IMG/VR virus record: IMGVR_UViG_3300021335_000009
Span: 1 to 64,000 of that record
DNA length: 64,000 nucleotides
DNA from: a virus
Strand: one strand, 5' to 3'
Positions 1-57,516 of this stretch are shown one piece after another. The notes below the pieces were generated by a model, which worked only from the letters and a program-made list of their open reading frames with translations, made no database searches and had not been told where the DNA came from. Position numbers and translations under genes: made by a program. The first letter of the stretch is position 1. Every line of letters begins with the position of its first letter.

Positions 1-112
1 TTCTGTTTTTATAAAAATGCTTAAATGTGGCGCGAGCTGTTAAAATGCCAATAGGCATCCATCCGTAATCTAACAGCAGCGTTGTGCGGTCATTGGGTTT
101 TGTTTTATTCAT
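1..112 (-). CDS. 5' part of a probable HNH endonuclease-family protein (runs off window start)
   Basis: Minus-strand ATG at 112, open to position 1: MNKTKPNDRTTLLLDYGWMPIGILTARATFKHFYKNR. Resembles the 'LLLn..y.P..i....Af' N-terminus of McrA-like HNH proteins; the HNH motif itself is outside the window. Confidence 0.45.
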   Translation of the reverse strand, partial: MNKTKPNDRTTLLLDYGWMPIGILTARATFKHFYKNR

Positions 113-656
113 TTTTTAAAAAAATACAAGTTGAGTCACGAACATAAGAAAACCCATAGATTTTAGCGCTCCCATAAACCTTAGCATTCTCATAAACCTT
201 GGCATTCCCATAGATTTTAGCACTCCCATAAACCTTAGAATTTCCAGAGATCCAAGCTTGTTCAGAAACATTAGATTTTCCATAGATTTTAGTGCTCCCT
301 TGTATCCAAGCGTTTCCATAGGTCTTAGCCCACCCATAAACCCGAGCTCGTCCAGAAACACGAACGCTTCCATAAACCCGAGCTTTTCCAGAGACACGAG
401 CTTTTCCAGAGACCCGAGCATTTCCATAGACCCGAGCGTTCCCATAGACCCGAGCGTTCCCATAGACCCGAGCGTTCCCATAGACCCGAGCATTTACACA
501 AATCCAACAAAAACCTTCTTGAGAAAGATTTTTTTCGCTTTGCACAAAGCCTCCCAAATCTCCTTTTTTAATATCGCCGAAGTCTTTTAAAGCTTCGATT
601 CTGTAAAGAGTTTTGTTTCTTATAGTTCTTGTTTCGTTTGTCAGTTTGTATTTCAT
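105..656 (-). CDS. Hexapeptide-repeat (beta-helix) phage protein, paralog 1 (basic repeats)
   Basis: N-domain MKYKLT...LYRIEALKDFG..KKGDLGGFVQSEKNLSQEG followed by (V/I)YGNAR-type 6-aa repeats. Confidence 0.8.
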   Translation of the reverse strand: MKYKLTNETRTIRNKTLYRIEALKDFGDIKKGDLGGFVQSEKNLSQEGFCWICVNARVYGNARVYGNARVYGNARVYGNARVSGKARVSGKARVYGSVRVSGRARVYGWAKTYGNAWIQGSTKIYGKSNVSEQAWISGNSKVYGSAKIYGNAKVYENAKVYGSAKIYGFSYVRDSTCIFLKNE

Positions 657-676
657 TTTTAAAATTATTTAGAAAC

Positions 677-1189
677 TCAAGCTTCGTCAAAAACTTCAGC
701 TTTGCCAGAAACGCAAGTTTTGTCGAAAACCCGAGCCTCGTCAAAAACACGAGCTTTGTCAAAAACACGAGCTTCGCCAGAAACCCAAGCCTCTCCATAA
801 ACCCAAGCTTCTCCATAAACACGAGCTTCGTTAAAAACCTCAGCTTTGCCATAAATCCATGCTTCGTCATAAACACGAGCTTCTCCATAAACCAAAGCTT
901 TGCCATAAATCTGAACTTTGTCATAAATCCGAGCTCTGTCAAAAACCTGAGCTTCTCCAAAAACCTTAGCTTTTTCATAAACCCAAGCTCTGCCATAAAC
1001 ACGGGCTTCTCCAAAAACACAAGCTTCGTCAAAAACCCAACAAGAACCCTCTTGAGAAAGGTTTTTTTCGCTTTGCACAAAGCCTCCCAAATCTCCCTTT
1101 TTAACATTGCCGAAGTCTTTTAAGGCTTCGATTCTGTAAAGAGTTTTGCCAACCACAGTTTTCGTTTCGTTTGTAAGTTTGTATTTCAT
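677..1189 (-). CDS. Hexapeptide-repeat phage protein, paralog 2
   Basis: Same N-domain; VYGEAR/VFDKAR repeats. Confidence 0.8.
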   Translation of the reverse strand: MKYKLTNETKTVVGKTLYRIEALKDFGNVKKGDLGGFVQSEKNLSQEGSCWVFDEACVFGEARVYGRAWVYEKAKVFGEAQVFDRARIYDKVQIYGKALVYGEARVYDEAWIYGKAEVFNEARVYGEAWVYGEAWVSGEARVFDKARVFDEARVFDKTCVSGKAEVFDEA

Positions 1190-1197
1190 TTTTAAAA

Positions 1198-1920
1198 TTA
1201 TTTAGAAACCCAAGCTTCGCCAAAAACGTCAGCTTTGCCAGAAACACGATCTTTGCCAGCAACCCAAGCTTTGTCGAAAACCCGAACTTCTCCATAAACC
1301 TCAACTTCGTCAGAAACACGAGCTTCGTTAAAAACCTCAGCTTTGTCATAAACACGAGCTTCGTTAAAAACCTCAGCTTTGCCATAAATACAAGCTTTGC
1401 CATAAATACGAGCTTCTCCAAAAATACAAGCTTCGCCATAAATACAAGCTTCTCCAAAAACCCAAGCTTCGCCATAAATACGAGCTTTTGCACAAGCCAC
1501 AGCTTTGTCAGAAACCCAAGCTTTTCCAAAAACACAAGCCTCTCCATGAACCTCAGCTTCGCCAGAAACACGAGCTTCGCCAGAAACACGAGCTCTACCA
1601 GTAACCAGAGCTACTTCAAAAACATAAGCTTCGTTATAAATACGAGCTTCTCCATAAACACGAGCTTTGTCGAAAACCTTAGCTTTTTCATAAACCTCAG
1701 CTTTTTCATAAACCCAAGCTCCGCCAGAAACACGAGCTCCTTCAAAAACACAAGCTTCGTCATAAATCCAACAAAAACCCTCTTGAGAAAGGTTTTTTTC
1801 GCTTTGCACAAAGCCTCCCAAATCTCCTTTTTTAACGTTGCCGAAGTCTTTTAAAGCTTCGATTCTGTAAAGAGTTTTGTTTCTTATAGTTCTTGTTTCG
1901 CTTGTAAGTTTGTATTTCAT
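1198..1920 (-). CDS. Hexapeptide-repeat phage protein, paralog 3
   Basis: Same N-domain; start placed at ATG 1920 (MKYKLT) by homology to the two paralogs. Confidence 0.8.
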   Translation of the reverse strand: MKYKLTSETRTIRNKTLYRIEALKDFGNVKKGDLGGFVQSEKNLSQEGFCWIYDEACVFEGARVSGGAWVYEKAEVYEKAKVFDKARVYGEARIYNEAYVFEVALVTGRARVSGEARVSGEAEVHGEACVFGKAWVSDKAVACAKARIYGEAWVFGEACIYGEACIFGEARIYGKACIYGKAEVFNEARVYDKAEVFNEARVSDEVEVYGEVRVFDKAWVAGKDRVSGKADVFGEAWVSK

Positions 1921-1961
1921 TTTTTTATAAAAAACCAAAAAACAACATCTGTCAAGAAAAA

Positions 1962-2035
1962 TGGACTACTAAGTGAATTCTGCCATCACATCTCTTGGGT
2001 TGCAACCAAGCGCATAACTTTTCTGCCATTAGTAG
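1962..2035 (-). tRNA. tRNA-Cys(GCA), atypical T-arm
   Basis: Acceptor CTACTAA/TTAGTAG, U73, encoded CCA; anticodon arm CTTGG-TTGCAAC-CCAAG; T-loop GGCAGAA non-canonical. Confidence 0.8.
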
Positions 2036-2046
2036 CTTAAAAAAAA

Positions 2047-2121
2047 TGGTAGCCCATAAGAGACTCGAACTCTTTCCTCATCCTTGAAGGGGATGCGATC
2101 TACCTATAATACTAATGGGCC
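2047..2121 (-). tRNA. tRNA-Glu(TTC), C33 variant
   Basis: GGCCCAT/ATGGGCT-A-CCA; anticodon arm CATCC-CCTTCAA-GGATG; T-arm AAGAG-TTCGAGT-CTCTT. Confidence 0.8.
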
Positions 2122-2126
2122 TTAAA

Positions 2127-2201
2127 TGGGGGTTCCAGAGGCAATCGAAGCCTCAACTTGGGGTTACAAATCCCGTGTTTTGCCGCTTAAACTATAGAAC
2201 C
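2127..2201 (-). tRNA. tRNA-Thr(TGT), mismatched anticodon stem
   Basis: GGTTCTA/TGGAACC-C-CCA; CGGGA-TTTGTAA-CCCCA; T-arm GAGGC-TTCGATT-GCCTC. Confidence 0.7.
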
Positions 2202-2203
2202 AG

Positions 2204-2281
2204 TGGTGGAGAACGGTCGGAATCGAACCGACGACCTTCTGAGTGCAAATCAGACGCTCTACCAACGTGAGCTACGCCCCC
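2204..2281 (-). tRNA. tRNA-Ala(TGC)
   Basis: GGGGGCGTAGCTCA...TCTGA-TTTGCAC-TCAGA...GTCGG-TTCGATT-CCGAC...ACCA. Confidence 0.92.
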
Positions 2282-2285
2282 AAAA

Positions 2286-2361
2286 TGGTGGAAACTCAGG
2301 GAATTGAACCCTAACCTCTTCGTCTTCAGCGAAGCGTGCAGACCTGCTACACTAAGTTTCC
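2286..2361 (-). tRNA. tRNA-Phe(GAA)
   Basis: GGAAACT/AGTTTCC-A-CCA; CTTCG-CTGAAGA-CGAAG; GGTTCAATTCC. Confidence 0.9.
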
Positions 2362-2363
2362 AA

Positions 2364-2437
2364 TGGCATCGCAAGAAGGGCTTGAACCTTCACAAAGAGT
2401 TTTGGAGACTCTCGTGCTACCATTACACCATTGCGAT
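2364..2437 (-). tRNA. tRNA-Trp(CCA)
   Basis: ATCGCAA/TTGCGAT-G-CCA; AGAGT-CTCCAAA-ACTCT; GAAGG-TTCAAGC-CCTTC. Confidence 0.92.
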
Positions 2438-2447
2438 ATATAAAACT

Positions 2448-2486
2448 AAAAAGAACAAAAAACCCCAAGCTTTTGACTTGGGGCTT
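2448..2486 (-). terminator. Intrinsic terminator (attenuator) between leader ORF and tRNA operon
   Basis: Minus strand AAGCCCCAAG-TCAAAAG-CTTGGGGTT followed by TTTTGTTCTTTTT. Confidence 0.85.
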
Positions 2487-2511
2487 AATATGATTAAAAC
2501 AAAAAAATAAA

Positions 2512-2595
2512 TCACCGTTTCAAAATATTGCACCCCAAACAGAAACTACATTCTGCTGTCGCTGTGGTGGCCCATTCTGTAAATAATTGATTCAT
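2512..2595 (-). CDS. 27-aa attenuator leader peptide MNQLFTEWATTATAECSFCLGCNILKR
   Basis: ATG 7 nt after a TATAAT box; codons 5-16 are exclusively F/T/E/W/A/C, the amino acids of the six downstream tRNAs; 3' end forms an antiterminator arm. Confidence 0.8.
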   Translation of the reverse strand: MNQLFTEWATTATAECSFCLGCNILKR

Positions 2596-2602
2596 CGCTA
2601 AT

Positions 2603-2630
2603 ATTATACACGCAAAAATAAAAAAGTCAA
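2603..2630 (-). promoter_or_regulatory. Sigma70-type promoter of leader/tRNA operon
   Basis: TTGACT-N16-TATAAT on minus strand. Confidence 0.85.
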
Positions 2631-2681
2631 CATTAAAAATCTAAAAAATCACAAACAAAACAAAAAGGTGTAAAAAAAAAT

Positions 2682-4502
2682 ATGGTTACGGCTTCGGATG
2701 AGAGTTATATAATTTTGCAAAATACTTTGTTAACAGGTATAACAAACTTGTCTTTTAGCTATTCCTCAAATCAAGAGGCGACTTATCTTTTGTCCAACAA
2801 AGGGATAAATAGAAAAATAAACAGTCCTCAAGTAATCGATTGTTCTATACGAAAAAAATATTTAGGAAAAGACTTTTTAAAAGACTTGACGGGTTTTGCA
2901 GGATTGTCTGGACAATTTATTTATGGCCAAAATGCTTTAGATTTTAACGATGCTGCTATTTCTAGCTATTCTATAGCAATGAAAACAAATCAATTGCCCG
3001 AAATAAATATTAATTTAAAAATTTTTGGCGATCTATCTCCTACCACAAATCTAAGAAAAGCAACAGCTTTTGCAGATAATGATAATTTAAATTTGGGGCA
3101 GGATTCTATTTTTTTTAATTTTTTAAATAAAAACTCAGCGATTGATGATTTTTCTTTTTCGGCTAATTTTCAAATAGAGCCGACTTACGAAATAGAGTCT
3201 ATAAAATCTTCCAAGGTAAAAATTTTGCCGCCTGTTTCTTATTCTACTTCTGCTTCTATAGAAATGACAGAGCAAGAATACGAAGATGTGACAGGTCTTT
3301 TGCAAAATGAAAATTACGATAGGCAAGTTTCTTTATCCTTTGTTGATTTACAAGCTATAGAAAACGTACAAACAATAGAGCAGGAGTATTTGTCTTTTAC
3401 TGGTAGCGGATTAGAAACAGGCGTTTATAATTTAGAGTTTGATACGGGATTTGCCAATTTAGACACGTTTTCTTTTTCTAAATTTGGATTAAGCTCTCAA
3501 AACATTTCTATAACTCCAAGAGACACTATTAAGCTTAGTGTTTCTTATGATGGATATGATTTGTCTTTGCCTACTGGCAGCGCAAGTTCTGTTTCTTCTT
3601 TTGAGCATCCTTCAAGTGTTGTAAGCGGTATTCAGTCTCAAGTAGACTCTGCGATTCAACATTTTAAAGATTCATATTTCGATATTCCTAAAATTACGGG
3701 AGAAGATTTTGAAAACACTGTTGAAGAAAGACTGTTGTTAGAAAACGAATCGTTCTTGCTTTTAGAGAATGGGGACAGATTTGTTGGAAATTTTGTTTAT
3801 TCTGAGTACGCCTTAACTGGAGCTGAATATTCTGATAGTGGGTATATTTTTGATTTTAATCAAAGGTCTGTTATCCAAAAAGAAGATTTCGAATCTTTTG
3901 AAACGGGGCAAACAAATCAAAATTTACATTTTTTAGCTATAGATGGATTTACTATACAGGATTTCGAAACAGAAATTACAGGACAATTTAACAACCAAAT
4001 TCACGACTTAAATCCATTAATATTTGAACAAGACTTCGAAACAGAGCTCCAAGGAACTACTTTTAAAAATATATATAATTTAAACGAAGCTATGCAAATA
4101 GAGAGCTTTGAAGCTGAAGCTTTAGGGCTTACCAATAAAAATTTATATTATTTAGGATCAGTCACACTTTCTGTTAATCCTCCTGATCCTGAGCCTGAGC
4201 CTATTGACAGCGGAAACTGGCAAGAAGAGTCTATAGAATACTTTCATATAAACTCAGCGCCAAGCGGGGTAGAAAAAACATTTATAACAAATTCTTCTCT
4301 AGAAAGCGGATTTGTAGATAATTTTAGCCCTACTTTAATAAGTATTACAGAAGAAGACGGAAGCACTTCTCAAAAATATTTTTTGACTAAAAATGTAGGG
4401 GGATCGGCTTCCGAAAATATTCCCTCTGGATTTCAAGAAGAAACTATTAACTACGTAGATAACTCTCAATTTATTGAAAAAATATTCTTAACAAAACAAT
4501 AA
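2682..4502 (+). CDS. Putative tail/virion structural protein
   Basis: 606 aa; GTGTAA late motif 8 nt upstream; repeated (E/Q)DFExxxxG motifs and LLLENxxxLLLENGD motif typical of tail accessory proteins. Confidence 0.55.
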   Translation: MVTASDESYIILQNTLLTGITNLSFSYSSNQEATYLLSNKGINRKINSPQVIDCSIRKKYLGKDFLKDLTGFAGLSGQFIYGQNALDFNDAAISSYSIAMKTNQLPEININLKIFGDLSPTTNLRKATAFADNDNLNLGQDSIFFNFLNKNSAIDDFSFSANFQIEPTYEIESIKSSKVKILPPVSYSTSASIEMTEQEYEDVTGLLQNENYDRQVSLSFVDLQAIENVQTIEQEYLSFTGSGLETGVYNLEFDTGFANLDTFSFSKFGLSSQNISITPRDTIKLSVSYDGYDLSLPTGSASSVSSFEHPSSVVSGIQSQVDSAIQHFKDSYFDIPKITGEDFENTVEERLLLENESFLLLENGDRFVGNFVYSEYALTGAEYSDSGYIFDFNQRSVIQKEDFESFETGQTNQNLHFLAIDGFTIQDFETEITGQFNNQIHDLNPLIFEQDFETELQGTTFKNIYNLNEAMQIESFEAEALGLTNKNLYYLGSVTLSVNPPDPEPEPIDSGNWQEESIEYFHINSAPSGVEKTFITNSSLESGFVDNFSPTLISITEEDGSTSQKYFLTKNVGGSASENIPSGFQEETINYVDNSQFIEKIFLTKQ

Positions 4503-4518
4503 AAGTGTAAACAAAATT

Positions 4519-5373
4519 ATGTCAGGCGGAACAATTTATAAAAAACAAGTAATAAGTGGAGCTCAACAAGGAACTGGAGACAACAGTTTGATCATTGGGC
4601 CAAAGCACGCTTACCAAGTGCCTTTTTCCTTTGGGGATAATTGGGAAGAAATTAACATCGGTGCATTTTTTAGTGTAGTAAGCGGAGATTCTCTTAATTC
4701 TGGATTTGGCGTTTCAAACAAAATTTCAGGAGGAACCACAAACGACACATTTACATGGATAGGAATTACAAAAAACGCACAAACAAAAACTCTTCCTTTG
4801 GATGCTGCCAATCAAGGATTTGTAGGGTATAAAGCCGATACTATTTATTTTACAAATTCAAGTGGTAGTCAACACAATAGTCACCATTGTTATGTTTTAA
4901 ACGATTCCAATAGTCAGGCGGAAATAGTGTCTTCTTATGGGGAGTCTGTATTATATGATACTTTTTTTGGTTATAACAATGGACTTATTAATACTAGAGG
5001 ATACACTGACGGAACAGATGGCCCACAAAATTCTGGAAATTTTTGTTCATATTTTGGAATTAAATATACTGTAAACAACAAAGGAGCCTCTAATCAATCT
5101 ATTTCAATAGCAATGTGTAAGCCTAGCGGGTGGTTTGGTAATTTGCACCCTCTTGATGATGAAAATTTTTATTCTAATCCTAGTTCAGTCGAATTAAGAA
5201 GTTTATTAGATGGGGACCAAACAGAAGTAGGCCTTTCCACTCATGGTTTTATTCAAAATGGGGCGGCTATTGATTTGCCAGATTCTTTTTTCTTTTATAA
5301 TGGTTTTGACGAAAGCGCTAACGAAAACGTAAGGCCAAGAATACATGCCTGGGCCGTTAAAAAAATTAGATAA
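4519..5373 (+). CDS. Hypothetical virion protein
   Basis: 284 aa, G/S/N-rich, GTGTAA motif upstream. Confidence 0.5.
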   Translation: MSGGTIYKKQVISGAQQGTGDNSLIIGPKHAYQVPFSFGDNWEEINIGAFFSVVSGDSLNSGFGVSNKISGGTTNDTFTWIGITKNAQTKTLPLDAANQGFVGYKADTIYFTNSSGSQHNSHHCYVLNDSNSQAEIVSSYGESVLYDTFFGYNNGLINTRGYTDGTDGPQNSGNFCSYFGIKYTVNNKGASNQSISIAMCKPSGWFGNLHPLDDENFYSNPSSVELRSLLDGDQTEVGLSTHGFIQNGAAIDLPDSFFFYNGFDESANENVRPRIHAWAVKKIR

Positions 5374-6156
5374 ATGCCAACAGAAACACCCTTTAAAGCC
5401 TTGGGTCTCAAAAATGGGTTTCCAAATTACATATCTCAGGACGTAACAGATTATGACAGTTGGACGACGTTGAGCGGATGGAGTAAAACAAATCAACCAT
5501 CTACACAATCTGCACAATTAGCTAGCATTGAAGAATCAAGGCGACTAGCTATGCTATTATTTTGGAATTTAAGCGAAGTCACTGGAACATTAAATACGTC
5601 AAGCAATGAACATGGTGCATCTAGTTTAAATTCTTCAGGCATAACAGGTCAGCCAAAAAATAGAGTACACTTATCGTCTATTGCAAATTTTGCAGAAGAT
5701 GGCGACGAATATCCTACTCTTGGATCACATTCACAATTAGGAACATTTAGTAATGGTTTTAAAATAGCGGAGCTTTATAACAATTCTGTATTTGTTGGCT
5801 ATGGAGTTGATTATGGTTTTCAAGCTAGAACTGACGCTGCTGCTTATTTAATGAGAGTTGACTCTAGGGTGCAGTTACGTTCTTATTATTCATATACTGT
5901 GAACCAATATGAAGATAGAGCTTACGTAAATTTAACTATAAATAATAACACTTTTTATTTAGTTTGTACGGCAAGAGTATATACGCAGTCATGGCATTCT
6001 ACAGGAACTACAACTGTCAATAAAAATGCGGCTAATTTGTTAGCTGAAGGCACGGCAAGTAGGAAATTTCCACTAGAAAATGGTGAGTATGGTCCGCTTA
6101 CACAAGTAGCAACTTCTAAGGCTCAAATTAATTCTTTAAATTTTTACACTTATTGA
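5374..6156 (+). CDS. Hypothetical virion protein
   Basis: 260 aa ORF abutting the previous gene; S/T/N-rich. Confidence 0.5.
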   Translation: MPTETPFKALGLKNGFPNYISQDVTDYDSWTTLSGWSKTNQPSTQSAQLASIEESRRLAMLLFWNLSEVTGTLNTSSNEHGASSLNSSGITGQPKNRVHLSSIANFAEDGDEYPTLGSHSQLGTFSNGFKIAELYNNSVFVGYGVDYGFQARTDAAAYLMRVDSRVQLRSYYSYTVNQYEDRAYVNLTINNNTFYLVCTARVYTQSWHSTGTTTVNKNAANLLAEGTASRKFPLENGEYGPLTQVATSKAQINSLNFYTY

Positions 6157-18106: not shown

Positions 18107-19198
18107 ATGAAAATTACTTTAAAAAACACCCCAGAACAAGTCCAGCTTATCAAAGCAATGGCTTCTAAGGACAAGCATGTTGCTTATGAAGCTCAAACAG
18201 CTTTAGCTGAGTTTATTGGCCCTGTTCTTTCAGAAGTTATTAATAACGCCCCAGCGTTATCAAATCTTTTTACAAGCGTTCAATATAATTCAGAAGATAA
18301 TCCTTCGATCCCTTTGGATTTGTATTATGACGTTTCTGACGAAGATTACATTCAAGTTTTTAGTCAAACAAGAGCGGGGGGCCTTCCAACTTCGGAAGTT
18401 CATCCTACATCTTCAGAGCTTAAAATCGCTACATACTCTCTTGATTCTGCGGTAAGCTTTGATCGTCGCTATGCCGCCAAAAGCAGAATGGATGTTGTTG
18501 CTAAAACAATGACTCGTGTAGCTCAAGAAATCCTTTTGAAGCAAAACACTATTTCTGGAAATGTTATTATGAAAGCTTTAGGTGGGGCAACTACTAACGG
18601 CTTGTCTCATGTTATTTCGGCTAATACAGCAAACAGATTTACGCTTGCTGATTTAAACGCTCTAATGACACGATCAAAAAGAATCATAACTTCTTTTGTT
18701 GGAGGCACTCCTGATGCTCGCCAAGGACGCGGAATTACTGACATTATCACTTCTCCTGAAATTGTTGAAGAACTTCGTGCTATTGCTTACAACCCAATCA
18801 ATACTAAAGTTGCTCCTGCTGGATCTGGAACAGACTCTGTAAGAACTGCTGATGTGATTGCAGAACAAGCTTTTAGCGCTGCTGGAGCTCCTGAGTTTTA
18901 TGGAATTAATGTTATTGAGCTAAACGAGTTTGGCGACAACCAAAAATTCAACAAACTGTTTAAAGCTAATTATGCAGGATCATTTACTCAAGCTACGGAT
19001 CAAATTGTAGTAGGCATTGACCGCAGCCGCGAATCTTTAATTAGACCAATTGCTGTAGATGCCGAAAACGGATCAGATTTTAGCCTTGTCGCTGATGATC
19101 AATATAGCATCCGTCAAAAGAAAATCGGTTACTTCGGGGGTCTTGAAGAAGGCCGCGTAGTTGTTGATAATCGAGCTCTTCTAGGAGTCATCGTTTAA
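18107..19198 (+). CDS. Major capsid protein
   Basis: 363 aa, canonical position, followed by strong terminator; HK97-like C-terminus (IGYFG..EEG..V.DNRAL). Confidence 0.75.
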   Translation: MKITLKNTPEQVQLIKAMASKDKHVAYEAQTALAEFIGPVLSEVINNAPALSNLFTSVQYNSEDNPSIPLDLYYDVSDEDYIQVFSQTRAGGLPTSEVHPTSSELKIATYSLDSAVSFDRRYAAKSRMDVVAKTMTRVAQEILLKQNTISGNVIMKALGGATTNGLSHVISANTANRFTLADLNALMTRSKRIITSFVGGTPDARQGRGITDIITSPEIVEELRAIAYNPINTKVAPAGSGTDSVRTADVIAEQAFSAAGAPEFYGINVIELNEFGDNQKFNKLFKANYAGSFTQATDQIVVGIDRSRESLIRPIAVDAENGSDFSLVADDQYSIRQKKIGYFGGLEEGRVVVDNRALLGVIV

Positions 19199-40570: not shown

Positions 40571-40598
40571 TTGACAATCAGGTTTGTTTGTGTAAGAT
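40571..40598 (+). promoter_or_regulatory. Sigma70-type promoter of RNR operon
   Basis: TTGACA-N16-TAAGAT, 6 nt before ATG. Confidence 0.75.
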
Positions 40599-40604
40599 GG
40601 TTGT

Positions 40605-41573
40605 ATGCTATTTGAAGAACAAATTTCTAGAAAACCTAACTTGTATCCTTGGACAGAAGAATTTATTCATGCCATGTGGAATGGCCACTGGACAGACCGA
40701 GAATTTTCTTTTAAATCGGACATTCAAGATTTCAAAGTCAAGCTTTCTAATCAAGAAAAAGAAATGGCTTCTAGGGCTTTGTCCGCTATCGGGCAAATAG
40801 AAGTTGCGGTAAAAACTTTTTGGGCAAAATTGGGCGACAATTTACCTCACCCTTCGATTCAAGACATGGGTTACGTCATGGCGAATATCGAATGTATTCA
40901 TAATTCGGCCTACGAAAGACTGCTGAAAGAGTTAGATTTAAACGATCTTTTTGAAGAAAATTTGAAATTAGATTGGATAAAAGGAAGGGTTAAATATTTA
41001 AAAAAATACACTCACAAATTTCACGCAGACAACAAAAAACAATTTATTTATTCTTTGATTTTGTTTACTTTGTTTGTCGAGAATGTTTCTCTTTTTTCGC
41101 AGTTTTATGTTATCCTCTGGTTTGGTAGAAAAAATTTATTAAAAGACACTTGCCAGCAAGTTCTTTATACCCTAAAAGAAGAAGATATTCACGCCAAAAT
41201 AGGGATGAAGTTAATCAACGCGATTAGAGAAGAGTATCCTGACTTATTTGACGAAGGCCTCCAAAAAAGAATTCTCGAAGAGGCTAAAGAAGCTTACAAA
41301 GCAGAAGAAAAAATGGTAGATTGGATGGTAAATGGCAAAAAAGGAGATTACTTAAACGCCTCTTTGCTTAAAGAGTTTATCAAAAACAGAATAAACGATT
41401 CTTTAGCAGAAATTAAATATCCTAAAATATTTGACATCGACAAAAAAATCATAAAGAATACTCAATGGTTTGACGAAATGGCTTACGGAAACAACATGGT
41501 AGATTTTTTTAACCAAAGGCCTACAGAATACTCCAAAAAAAGCCAATCATTTGAAGAAGAAGATTTATTTTAA
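40605..41573 (+). CDS. nrdB: Ribonucleotide reductase beta subunit (NrdBi/class Id-like)
   Basis: QIEVAVKTFW, ECIHNSAY, ENVSLFSQF, EEDIH, DFFNQRPTEY. Confidence 0.93.
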   Translation: MLFEEQISRKPNLYPWTEEFIHAMWNGHWTDREFSFKSDIQDFKVKLSNQEKEMASRALSAIGQIEVAVKTFWAKLGDNLPHPSIQDMGYVMANIECIHNSAYERLLKELDLNDLFEENLKLDWIKGRVKYLKKYTHKFHADNKKQFIYSLILFTLFVENVSLFSQFYVILWFGRKNLLKDTCQQVLYTLKEEDIHAKIGMKLINAIREEYPDLFDEGLQKRILEEAKEAYKAEEKMVDWMVNGKKGDYLNASLLKEFIKNRINDSLAEIKYPKIFDIDKKIIKNTQWFDEMAYGNNMVDFFNQRPTEYSKKSQSFEEEDLF

Positions 41574-55201: not shown

Positions 55202-55246
55202 TTTTTTTGTATTGACATTTTTCAAACAAAAATTAACATAAAAAAA

Positions 55247-55612
55247 ATGACATCTGACAAGGTTAAAAAAATAACCCCGCATAGAAGAAAATTAAACATT
55301 TTAAGCAGGCTTCTTGACATTCCAGAAAAACAAAAAAGGTTTTTTTATGCTAGGGAAATGAAATTTTTAAAAATTTTAGAAGAAAGATATTCTTTAGATT
55401 TTTTAGAAATAATTACTTTTCCAAAAAAATATGACAGTTTGGCCATTTTAGTTTCAAAAGAGCTAAAACAAACTATGAATAAAAAATGGAATAATTTTAA
55501 TTTTAAAATTGACACTTCAAAATACCAAAAGTATAATATAGGAAAAAAATCAGGAGAAGATTTTGTACCTACAAAAAAACAATTAAAAAGAACAAAAGAT
55601 TTATTTAAATGA
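55247..55612 (+). CDS. Hypothetical basic protein
   Basis: 121 aa; TTGACA-N16-TAACAT promoter 7 nt upstream. Confidence 0.6.
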   Translation: MTSDKVKKITPHRRKLNILSRLLDIPEKQKRFFYAREMKFLKILEERYSLDFLEIITFPKKYDSLAILVSKELKQTMNKKWNNFNFKIDTSKYQKYNIGKKSGEDFVPTKKQLKRTKDLFK

Positions 55613-57444: not shown

Positions 57445-57516
57445 AGTTCCATAGTTTAATCGGCAAAAATCCCGTAGTCACATTCGGAGTCCCCAGTTCA
57501 AATCTGGGTGGAACTT
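57445..57516 (+). ncRNA. tRNA-like element 2 (irregular anticodon arm)
   Basis: AGTTCCA/TGGAACT; D-arm TAGTTTAATCGGCAAAA; T-arm CCCAG-TTCAAAT-CTGGG; no CCA. Confidence 0.65.

What the first reader, a model, noticed from the sequence alone, without database searches (positions are those of the whole stretch)
2461..2539. Mutually exclusive antiterminator and terminator helices overlapping the leader's 3' end
On the minus-strand RNA, leader codons 19-27 (UUUGGGGU-GC-AAUAU-U-UUGAAAC) pair in three segments with downstream GUUUUAA-UC-AUAUU-AA-GCCCCAAG. GCCCCAAG is also the 5' arm of the terminator, where it pairs with CUUGGGGU. A ribosome reaching the stop codon would mask the antiterminator's 5' arm, so transcription terminates. 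A ribosome stalled at codons 5-16 would leave it free, so transcription reads through. The polarity is the one needed for induction on tRNA shortage, which supports the attenuator model independently of codon content.
Basis: partly seen in the sequence, partly recalled or inferred. Interest (0 to 1): 0.8.

Follow-up and report, generated by a model that had tools for sequence, protein, structure and literature searches.

The report
Switchable terminator before phage tRNA genes
A marine phage puts a tiny gene, spelled in the five amino acids that its own tRNAs carry and wired to an on/off transcription stop, in front of those tRNA genes, so it probably makes them only when ribosomes run short of them.

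Summary
On the minus strand, 2539-2515 (leader codons 19-27) pairs in three helices with 2500-2477. The stretch 2484-2477 is also the 5' arm of an 11-bp terminator (2486-2460 plus a U tract). The antiterminator folds at -20.7 kcal/mol (z -3.7, 0 of 200 shuffles) against -16.3 for the terminator.

The context makes it a full trp-type attenuator:
- a promoter matching 11 of 12 consensus positions
- an ATG 7 nt after the -10
- a 27-codon ORF
- the terminator
- 22 nt later, tRNA-Trp, Phe, Ala, Thr and Glu

Codons 5-15 (FTEWATTATAE) use only those five amino acids. This is the longest such run in all six frames of the 84-kb contig; the next longest is 7.

Ribosome-mask folding places the switch exactly at the end of that run. 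Stalls up to codon 15-17 keep the antiterminator, and later positions or the stop codon give the terminator.

Contigs from three other metagenome studies keep the ORF and all three helices. Four more distant relatives lack the leader altogether.

My searches found no published case of leader-peptide attenuation of tRNA genes. Earlier unchecked notes of this scan report the same design in other phages, and I re-checked one phiCbK block. Function remains inferred.

The parts
2603..2630 (-). Sigma-70-type promoter, TTGACT-N16-TATAAT
   Evidence: It matches 11 of 12 consensus positions and is the best of 16 promoter-like sites in 1-6000. The scan as a whole is not above shuffles (mean 14.4). It is the only minus-strand site upstream of the tRNA array.
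2512..2595 (-). Leader ORF of 27 codons plus stop: MNQLFTEWATTATAECSFCLGCNILKR. The ATG lies 7 nt after the -10, so the mRNA is leaderless or has a very short 5' UTR.
   Evidence: Two other promoters in the contig have the same promoter-to-ATG spacing and open 322-aa and 121-aa ORFs. The frame, length and stop are kept in contigs of three other studies.
2551..2583 (-). Regulatory run, codons 5-15 (FTEWATTATAE), made only of the five amino acids of the downstream tRNAs
   Evidence: It is the longest such run in all six frames of the 84,169-nt contig. The next longest is 7, seen twice. The chance is about 1e-6 per 27-mer.
2506..2596 (-). 1:2 hairpin (protector, possibly a pause hairpin). Codons 1-12 pair with codons 19-27 and the stop region, and a U run follows.
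   Evidence: -24.3 kcal/mol. It is part of the full-length MFE.
2515..2539 (-). Region 2: the antiterminator 5' arm, inside leader codons 19-27
2477..2502 (-). Region 3: the antiterminator 3' arm. Its last 8 nt (2484-2477) are shared with the terminator 5' arm.
2452..2486 (-). Intrinsic terminator: an 11-bp stem (2486-2476 with 2470-2460), a 5-nt loop and a U tract
   Evidence: -16.3 kcal/mol. It is -13.3 in the other haplotypes.
2364..2437 (-). tRNA-Trp (CCA)
   Evidence: ARAGORN. Rfam tRNA model, 63.6 bits.
2286..2361 (-). tRNA-Phe (GAA)
   Evidence: 62.7 bits.
2208..2281 (-). tRNA-Ala (UGC)
   Evidence: 58.9 bits.
2127..2201 (-). tRNA-Thr (UGU)
   Evidence: 51.6 bits.
2047..2121 (-). tRNA-Glu (UUC), followed by a run of 8 T
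   Evidence: (46.6 bits).

Best explanation
This is a ribosome-mediated (leader-peptide) transcription attenuator of the trp/thr/ilv type, but it gates a five-gene tRNA operon of a marine phage.

Inferred sequence of events:
1. Host RNA polymerase starts at the promoter 2630-2603. The transcript begins at or just before the AUG at 2595, and a ribosome translates the 27-codon leader.
2. If decoding of the Phe, Thr, Glu, Trp and Ala codons (codons 5-15) is slow because those charged tRNAs are scarce, the ribosome stalls there. This covers region 1 and leaves region 2 (2539-2515) free to pair with region 3 (2500-2477). The terminator 5' arm is then sequestered, and the polymerase reads through into tRNA-Trp, Phe, Ala, Thr and Glu.
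3. If decoding is fast, the ribosome runs onto region 2 and the stop codon, the terminator 2486-2460 forms, and transcription ends 14 nt (U tract) before tRNA-Trp.

The result is demand-driven negative feedback on the phage's tRNA supply.

Shown here: the sequence elements, their geometry, their energies, the statistical outlier status of the codon run and of the alternative pairing, and their retention in near-identical strains. Inferred: translation of the ORF, the transcription start, termination and read-through, and the physiological signal.
For: Architecture:
- The order is promoter, ORF, terminator, then five tRNAs. Only 22 nt separate the terminator stem (14 nt after the U tract) from tRNA-Trp, and no other minus-strand promoter is present, so tRNA expression must pass the terminator.

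Codon mirror:
- Codons 5-15 use only the five amino acids of the five tRNAs, and all five are present.
- The run is the longest in six frames of the 84 kb: 11, against the next longest of 7.
- Chance is p^11 = 8e-8 to 2e-7 per position, times 0.25 for all five being present.
- By my reading of the codons against the anticodons, 9 of the 11 codons are read by the phage anticodons by Watson-Crick or standard wobble pairing.

Switch:
- Antiterminator -20.7 (z -3.68, 0 of 200 shuffles).
- Terminator -16.3, 1:2 hairpin -24.3, full MFE (1:2 plus terminator) -42.0.
- It is the strongest upstream competitor among 7 terminator-like hairpins in the contig.

Geometry:
- The antiterminator survives stalls up to codon 15-17 and collapses right after the run, in three haplotypes and for three footprint assumptions.

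Leaderless start:
- 3 of 25 promoter-like sites in the contig have an ATG 6-7 nt after the -10 that opens an ORF. These are the leader, a 322-aa ORF and a 121-aa ORF.

Natural variants, from contigs of 3 other studies:
- There are no indels in the leader and the ORF is kept.
- Of 8 substitutions in the transcribed leader, 4 fall in the 33 of 143 positions that never pair, 3 keep pairing in every helix they belong to, and 1 breaks a pair.
- The one change inside the run is Ala to Thr, which stays in the set.

Independent analogue:
- In cultured phage phiCbK, the block Phe-Val-Ile-Ile-Val-Gln-Gln sits behind a promoter, a 32-codon ORF and an annotated terminator. In that ORF, 9 of residues 7-18 belong to F, V, I or Q. 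The terminator has an in-ORF alternative partner and shows the same polarity.
Against: - There is no experimental datum of any kind.
- Conservation is shown only among strains about 98-99% identical over the laid stretch. The variant pattern is in the right direction but not significant (P = 0.09 for the excess at unpaired sites; 3 of 4 paired-site changes kept, against about half expected).
- The relatives found through the neighbouring 606-aa gene (47-60% identity; 3 of 3 loci read, plus L004, which has the same tRNAs at the same coordinates as L003) carry other tRNAs at the same place. Their tRNAs sit directly behind promoters, or (L002, L003) behind a 78-aa ORF with no terminator. None has a leader or a terminator.
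- There is no Shine-Dalgarno sequence, so translation rests on an inferred leaderless start.
- Two run codons (GCC, ACC) need extended wobble by the U34 tRNAs.
- Phe and Trp are each sampled by one codon only in the run.
- Before region 4 emerges, the untranslated RNA also prefers the antiterminator (-29.9 against -24.3). With region 4 present the two states are within about 2.5 kcal/mol, so the outcome depends on kinetics I could not model.
- One natural change (L20S in X5) shortens the outer antiterminator helix.
Confidence: 0.65

Rival explanations
1. The hairpin is a constitutive, partly leaky terminator or an insulator/stability element that sets a fixed low level of tRNA transcription. 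The short ORF is untranslated or irrelevant, and the alternative pairing has no regulatory role.
For: Relatives express tRNA arrays directly from promoters with no leader. There is no SD sequence. The whole-region promoter and terminator scans are not above shuffles: 16 against 14.4, and 6 against 4.7.
Against: An 11-codon run limited to exactly the five cognate amino acids is unique in six frames of 84 kb. The alternative helix is a z -3.7 to -4.0 outlier. The switch boundary coincides with the end of the run. The ORF is kept intact in three other strains.
Confidence: 0.12
2. The switch works through translation but reports general translation status (ribosome availability, host shut-off, amino-acid starvation) rather than the supply of these five tRNAs. 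The codon content is secondary.
For: Ribosome stalling reports charged tRNA, so it cannot by itself tell amino-acid starvation from tRNA loss. Any slowing on codons 1-16 gives the antiterminator in the model.
Against: It does not explain why the run is built only from the five cognate amino acids, with all five present, nor why the one natural replacement stays in the set. Making more tRNA would not relieve amino-acid starvation.
Confidence: 0.12
3. The ORF encodes a functional 27-aa Cys-rich micro-protein with its own terminator. The tRNAs are made by incidental read-through.
For: There are three Cys in CSFCLGC. The ORF length is conserved in close strains.
Against: Three of four changes in the X5 ORF are non-synonymous (A9T, S17I, L20S), which does not suggest a constrained protein. 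No homologue of the peptide pattern was found in viral contigs. The codon mirror and the in-ORF antiterminator remain unexplained.
Confidence: 0.05

Closest known systems
E. coli trp operon attenuator (trpL). Textbook knowledge, recalled, not from a call.
   Same: Promoter, short ORF, and four regions forming 1:2, 2:3 and 3:4 with a U tract. The regulatory codons lie in region 1 and the stop codon lies next to region 2. A stall gives read-through.
   Different: The regulated genes here are tRNAs, not biosynthetic enzymes. Five amino acids are sampled instead of one. The start is leaderless with no SD. It is a phage element. There is no sequence similarity, and Rfam gives only a sub-threshold trpB-motif hit of 24.1 bits against a cut-off of 59.
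Multivalent leaders of the thr (Thr, Ile) and ilvGMEDA (Ile, Val, Leu) operons. Recalled.
   Same: One leader mixes codons of several amino acids, so shortage of any of them relieves termination.
   Different: Those mixes mirror the end products of a pathway. Here the mix mirrors the tRNA genes placed behind the terminator.
pheM leader of the pheST operon and pheL of pheA. pheL is from the search listing and abstract of PMC3082878. pheM is recalled.
   Same: Leader-peptide attenuation is used to control a component of the decoding apparatus according to tRNA charging.
   Different: That system controls a synthetase protein gene through a single amino acid, in a cellular genome.
T-box riboswitches. 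Recalled; also mentioned in passages of PMC2965389.
   Same: A terminator/antiterminator choice reports tRNA status.
   Different: A T-box binds uncharged tRNA directly and has no ORF. No T-box hit was found here even at E up to 10.
Anabaena trn operon (26 tRNA genes) induced under translational stress. PMC8421152, passages. PMC10272220, abstract.
   Same: An accessory tRNA array is switched on when translation is impaired.
   Different: Control there is at the promoter, by the repressor TrcR acting on direct repeats. The words attenuat-, leader and terminator do not occur in PMC8421152.
Leader/terminator cassettes before tRNA arrays noted earlier by this scan in other phages (AI notes), such as phiCbK-like Caulobacter phages
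   Same: The same design: promoter, mini-ORF built from the amino acids of the array, and a terminator with an in-ORF alternative partner. I re-derived this for one phiCbK block.
   Different: Those phages are unrelated in sequence and host. In my own look at four phiCbK blocks, two leaders showed clear enrichment, one did not, and one block had no terminator. The notes are unpublished and mostly unchecked.

Membership tests
Leader-peptide (ribosome-mediated) transcription attenuator | A promoter followed by a short ORF that can be translated | tested here: inconclusive
   The promoter matches 11 of 12 positions and the ATG lies 7 nt after the -10. Sibling promoters with the same spacing open real ORFs. 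There is no SD and no expression data.
Leader-peptide (ribosome-mediated) transcription attenuator | A cluster of regulatory codons cognate to the regulated product | tested here: met
   Codons 5-15 use only the amino acids of the five downstream tRNAs. The run is unique in six frames of 84 kb.
Leader-peptide (ribosome-mediated) transcription attenuator | An intrinsic terminator between the leader and the regulated genes, with no promoter after it | tested here: met
   An 11-bp stem plus U tract at 2486-2452, with tRNA-Trp starting at 2437. No other minus-strand promoter is present.
Leader-peptide (ribosome-mediated) transcription attenuator | An antiterminator that shares a strand with the terminator and is energetically competitive | tested here: met
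   -20.7 against -16.3 kcal/mol, z -3.68. In the variants the values are -18.2 against -13.3 and -16.0 against -13.3.
Leader-peptide (ribosome-mediated) transcription attenuator | Geometry: a stall at the regulatory codons frees region 2, and a ribosome at the stop codon masks it | tested here: met
   In the ribosome-mask folds the boundary falls at codon 15-17.
Leader-peptide (ribosome-mediated) transcription attenuator | A 1:2 protector or pause hairpin | tested here: met
   -24.3 kcal/mol and part of the full MFE. Pausing itself is not testable here.
Leader-peptide (ribosome-mediated) transcription attenuator | Conservation or covariation in relatives | tested here: inconclusive
   The element is kept in 3 near-identical strains, and 7 of 8 substitutions are compatible with the model, but this is not significant. 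It is absent from relatives at 47-60% identity.
Leader-peptide (ribosome-mediated) transcription attenuator | Read-through that responds to charged-tRNA supply | not testable with these tools
   This needs in vitro transcription, reporters or 3'-end mapping.
T-box riboswitch | A match to the T-box covariance model (specifier loop, T-box sequence) | tested here: not met
   There is no T-box hit among the 19 matches listed at E up to 10 for 1900-2660.
Rfam RF04312 trpB ncRNA motif | A score at or above the gathering threshold of 59 bits | tested here: not met
   24.1 bits, E 0.66. The match is to a generic hairpin plus terminator.

The most novel reading that the evidence does not exclude
The attenuator is a counter-defence sensor. 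When a host tRNA-cleaving immune nuclease depletes Phe, Thr, Glu, Trp or Ala tRNAs, ribosomes stall in the leader. Only then does the phage transcribe its own replacement tRNAs, some with unusual anticodon arms that might escape cleavage. Examples are C33 in tRNA-Glu and two non-canonical pairs in the tRNA-Thr anticodon stem. More broadly, codon-mirrored leaders would be a general, portable control module that travels with phage tRNA cassettes.
Probability: 0.15. Interest if true: 0.9.

Novelty: new variant of a known kind. Interest (0 to 1): 0.78.

Why it matters
Why phages carry tRNA genes has long been debated. The two main ideas are codon compensation and escape from tRNA-targeting defences (PMC10264068 and PMC11555353; I saw the search listing and abstract starts). 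A leader whose codons mirror the tRNA genes behind a switchable terminator would mean the phage measures decoding speed and supplies tRNAs on demand. That would extend the classical attenuation logic from amino-acid and synthetase genes to tRNA genes themselves. The leader codons also give a direct read-out of which tRNAs the phage expects to be limiting. The module is small, about 180 nt, and could serve as a portable tRNA-supply sensor. It is directly testable with reporter fusions. The analogous cassette that I re-derived in cultured phage phiCbK offers a laboratory system.

Tried and rejected
Searches for homologues of the leader gave no covariation beyond near-identical strains:
- An IUPAC back-translation of codons 5-15 found 0 hits in viral contigs.
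- The terminator arms as a pattern found 5 loci, none with a tRNA. I rejected these as chance.
- Segments of tRNA-Trp, Glu and Phe found 0, 0 and 0 hits.
- blastn of 2000-2700 against cultured phages found tRNA-length matches only, with 0 of 238 records covering 80%.
- tblastn of the 606-aa neighbour and of a 363-aa ORF (18107-19198, which I only guessed to be the capsid gene) against cultured phages found no match, so the host stays unknown.
- The metagenome scan with alignment A1 returned 3 loci. Two are the same contigs as L002 and L003, and one is a 1.6-kb fragment.
- The search for homologous proteins showed a gap between 97% and 62% identity. Cluster members on longer contigs (up to 129,634 nt) could not be fetched.

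- There is no Infernal hit at E up to 10.
- Relaxed ARAGORN finds nothing.
- The fold has z -0.25.
- The stretch is replaced in strain X5.
I therefore count Cys16 as outside the core run.

The RNA run X20 holds one 169-nt contig identical to 2173-2341, across the tRNA-Thr, Ala and Phe junctions. DNA may be present in that library and the leader has no cover, so I draw nothing from it.

Faults in my own scripts:
- One search used a regex that missed the promoter at 2630. One search replaces it.
- In one search the P_anti column used a wrong pair register and should be ignored. The pair counts and P_term stand.
- allowed pairs to span the ribosome. One search replaces it.

Literature. Seven full-text searches, plus term look-ups in PMC2965389, PMC8421152 and PMC10264068, found no leader-peptide attenuator before tRNA genes. 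The library lacks most subscription journals. Supplements were closed and I did not open any. Supplementary Fig. S9 of PMC8421152 (promoter mapping) could bear on the Anabaena comparison.

Full report
**What the window is.** The window is the first 64 kb of an 84,169-nt uncultivated virus record that CheckV puts at about 62% complete. It is AT-rich, 30-40% G+C. It carries ribonucleotide reductase, a DnaB-like helicase and tail-fibre-like genes. Contigs about 98-99% identical over the laid stretch occur in a coral-reef metagenome, a marine metagenome and a viral metagenome from three studies. No cultured relative was found.

**The observation.** The minus strand of 2640-2430 holds these elements in order:
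- TTGACT-N16-TATAAT at 2630-2603, matching 11 of 12 consensus positions. It is the best of the 16 promoter-like sites in 1-6000, although that scan as a whole is not above shuffles.
- An ATG at 2595, 7 nt after the -10.
- A 27-codon ORF, MNQLFTEWATTATAECSFCLGCNILKR, ending at 2512.
- A terminator with an 11-bp stem (2486-2460), a 5-nt loop and a U tract.
- tRNA-Trp (CCA) starting 22 nt after the stem (14 nt after the U tract), then Phe (GAA), Ala (UGC), Thr (UGU) and Glu (UUC), down to 2047.

RNAfold returns them as MFE and centroid for 2545-2476: -20.7 kcal/mol, z -3.68, 0 of 200 shuffles as good. The eight bases 2484-2477 are shared with the terminator 5' arm. The ORF carries a near-copy (2539-2532) of the terminator 3' arm (2469-2462). 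That 8-mer class occurs only 6 times on both strands of the window. Of the 7 terminator-like hairpins my script found in the contig, this one has by far the strongest upstream competitor: -20.7 and z -3.99, against -11.4 and z -1.1 for the next.

**A complete four-region attenuator.** The leader also folds on itself. Codons 1-12 pair with codons 19-27 and the stop region at -24.3 kcal/mol. The full-length MFE is this 1:2 hairpin plus the terminator, at -42.0 with z -3.06. I then folded only the RNA downstream of a ribosome, ending before the terminator 3' arm has emerged:
- The antiterminator holds for A-site codons 1-16, with 6-8 of the terminator 5'-arm bases paired to region 2.
- It drops to 3, 2, 0 at codons 17-19.
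- With the ribosome at the stop codon, only the terminator forms (P_term 1.0).
- The boundary shifts by one codon for leading edges of +10 or +16 nt, and it holds in all three natural haplotypes.

There are caveats. The evidence is thermodynamic, not kinetic. Untranslated RNA before region 4 emerges also prefers the antiterminator (-29.9). With region 4 present, the two states lie within about 2.5 kcal/mol.

**Codon content.** This is a neighbouring point, but it decides the reading. Codons 5-15 (FTEWATTATAE) use only the five amino acids of the five downstream tRNAs, and all five are present. Across all six frames of the 84-kb contig, the longest run from this set is this one at 11. The next longest is 7, seen twice. 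The set frequency is 0.23-0.25, so p^11 is about 1e-7 per position, times 0.25 for all five being present. By my reading of the codons against the anticodons, nine of the eleven codons are read by the phage anticodons by Watson-Crick or standard wobble pairing. GCC and ACC need extended wobble. The run ends exactly where the ribosome-mask model says stalling stops being productive.

**Translation start.** There is no Shine-Dalgarno sequence. In the same contig, 3 of 25 promoter-like sites have an ATG 6-7 nt after the -10. Besides the leader, these open ORFs of 322 and 121 aa. Relatives show the same close promoter-to-ATG layout. A leaderless start is therefore plausible, but it is inferred.

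**Related sequences.**
- *Close strains.* Contigs from X3 (861 nt aligned, 5 differences), X9 (378 nt, 3 differences) and X5 (860 nt, 19 differences) cover the leader without indels. All three differ from the window at 2481, 2484 and 2530. X5 has six further changes between 2508 and 2599. On the RNA, C2481U and G2484A keep pairing in both the terminator and the antiterminator. C2530U is a synonymous Cys codon change that adds a pair to the antiterminator. A2508G keeps a 1:2 pair. Three changes lie at positions that never pair. U2537C (L20S) breaks a pair in two helices. Seven of the eight changes in the transcript fit the model, but this is not significant (P = 0.09). The single change inside the run is Ala to Thr, which stays within the set. 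The other replacements (S17I, L20S) lie outside the run. Energies keep their order in all haplotypes: antiterminator against terminator is -20.7 against -16.3, -18.2 against -13.3, and -16.0 against -13.3.
- *More distant relatives.* Loci found through the neighbouring 606-aa gene (47-60% identity) have different tRNAs at the same place. Their tRNAs sit directly behind promoters, or behind a 78-aa ORF with no terminator. None has a leader or a terminator. The attenuator is thus specific to this lineage or travels with the cassette. No other copy of the cassette's tRNAs was found in IMG/VR.

**Comparison with what is known.** The design matches the textbook trp attenuator and the multivalent thr and ilv leaders (recalled). 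The regulated genes are the novelty.
- Rfam gives no T-box hit and only a sub-threshold trpB-motif match of 24.1 bits against a cut-off of 59.
- Seven full-text searches and three in-paper look-ups found no leader-peptide attenuator before tRNA genes.
- The nearest case in print is the Anabaena trn operon, which is induced by translational stress. It is controlled at the promoter by the repressor TrcR.
- Earlier unchecked notes of this scan describe the same design in other phages.
- I tested one such lead myself in phiCbK. The block Phe-Val-Ile-Ile-Val-Gln-Gln follows a promoter, a 32-codon ORF and an annotated terminator. In that ORF, 9 of residues 7-18 are F, V, I or Q. The terminator's 5' arm pairs with an in-ORF copy of its 3' arm, and it shows the same stall polarity. 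Of the four phiCbK blocks I looked at, two leaders show clear enrichment, one (Glu, Asp) does not, and one has no terminator.

**Verdict.** The most likely mechanism is demand-driven, ribosome-mediated attenuation of a phage tRNA operon (confidence 0.65). I class it as a new variant of a known kind. The main gaps are the lack of any expression or termination data and the lack of informative covariation.

Noticed in passing
window 1962-2036 (minus): A tRNA-Cys(GCA)-like stretch with a 7-bp acceptor stem and an anticodon hairpin. It is not called by Infernal (E up to 10) or by relaxed ARAGORN, and its fold has z -0.25. In strain X5, 1987-2040 is replaced by 9 nt, and the X3 contig diverges at 2040.
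   Followed up: partly
window 2047-2201 (minus): tRNA-Glu has C where the near-universal U33 normally sits (loop CCUUCAA). tRNA-Thr has two non-canonical pairs in its anticodon stem, as seen in the cmscan alignments. This may be relevant to escape from anticodon nucleases.
   Followed up: no
window 105-1938 (minus): Three tandem paralogues (183, 170 and 246 aa) with long ARVYG-type repeats. They match phrog_7964 and phrog_5070, both of unknown function. They lie directly downstream of the tRNA operon and might be partly co-transcribed with it.
   Followed up: no
L002 about 835-905; L003 about 3395-3470; L005 about 1185-1265 (minus): A conserved element of about 80 nt lies immediately upstream of a tRNA gene (Lys, Lys, Gln) in three relatives. 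It has no Rfam family at gathering score and is absent from the window.
   Followed up: partly
L002 about 1525-1545 and L005 about 1520-1545 (minus): A shared box (TTGATCTTTGATAGTTT) lies between the promoter and the first tRNA of the array in two relatives, at the place where the window has the leader ORF. It may be a processing or regulatory site.
   Followed up: no
window 40571-40605 and 55212-55248 (plus): Promoter-like sites with an ATG 6-7 nt after the -10 open ORFs of 322 and 121 aa. Leaderless mRNAs may be common in this phage.
   Followed up: partly
window 57445-57516 (plus): ARAGORN calls a tRNA of undetermined identity with a two-base 'anticodon'. The Rfam tRNA model does not reach its gathering score there.
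   Followed up: no
L015 (phiCbK JX100813, 47000-53000): Annotated rho-independent terminators sit directly before three tRNA blocks. gp083 (45 aa, 51% P/K/L/S) precedes the Pro-Lys-Leu-Ser block, and an unannotated 32-codon ORF precedes the Phe-Val-Ile-Gln block.
   Followed up: partly
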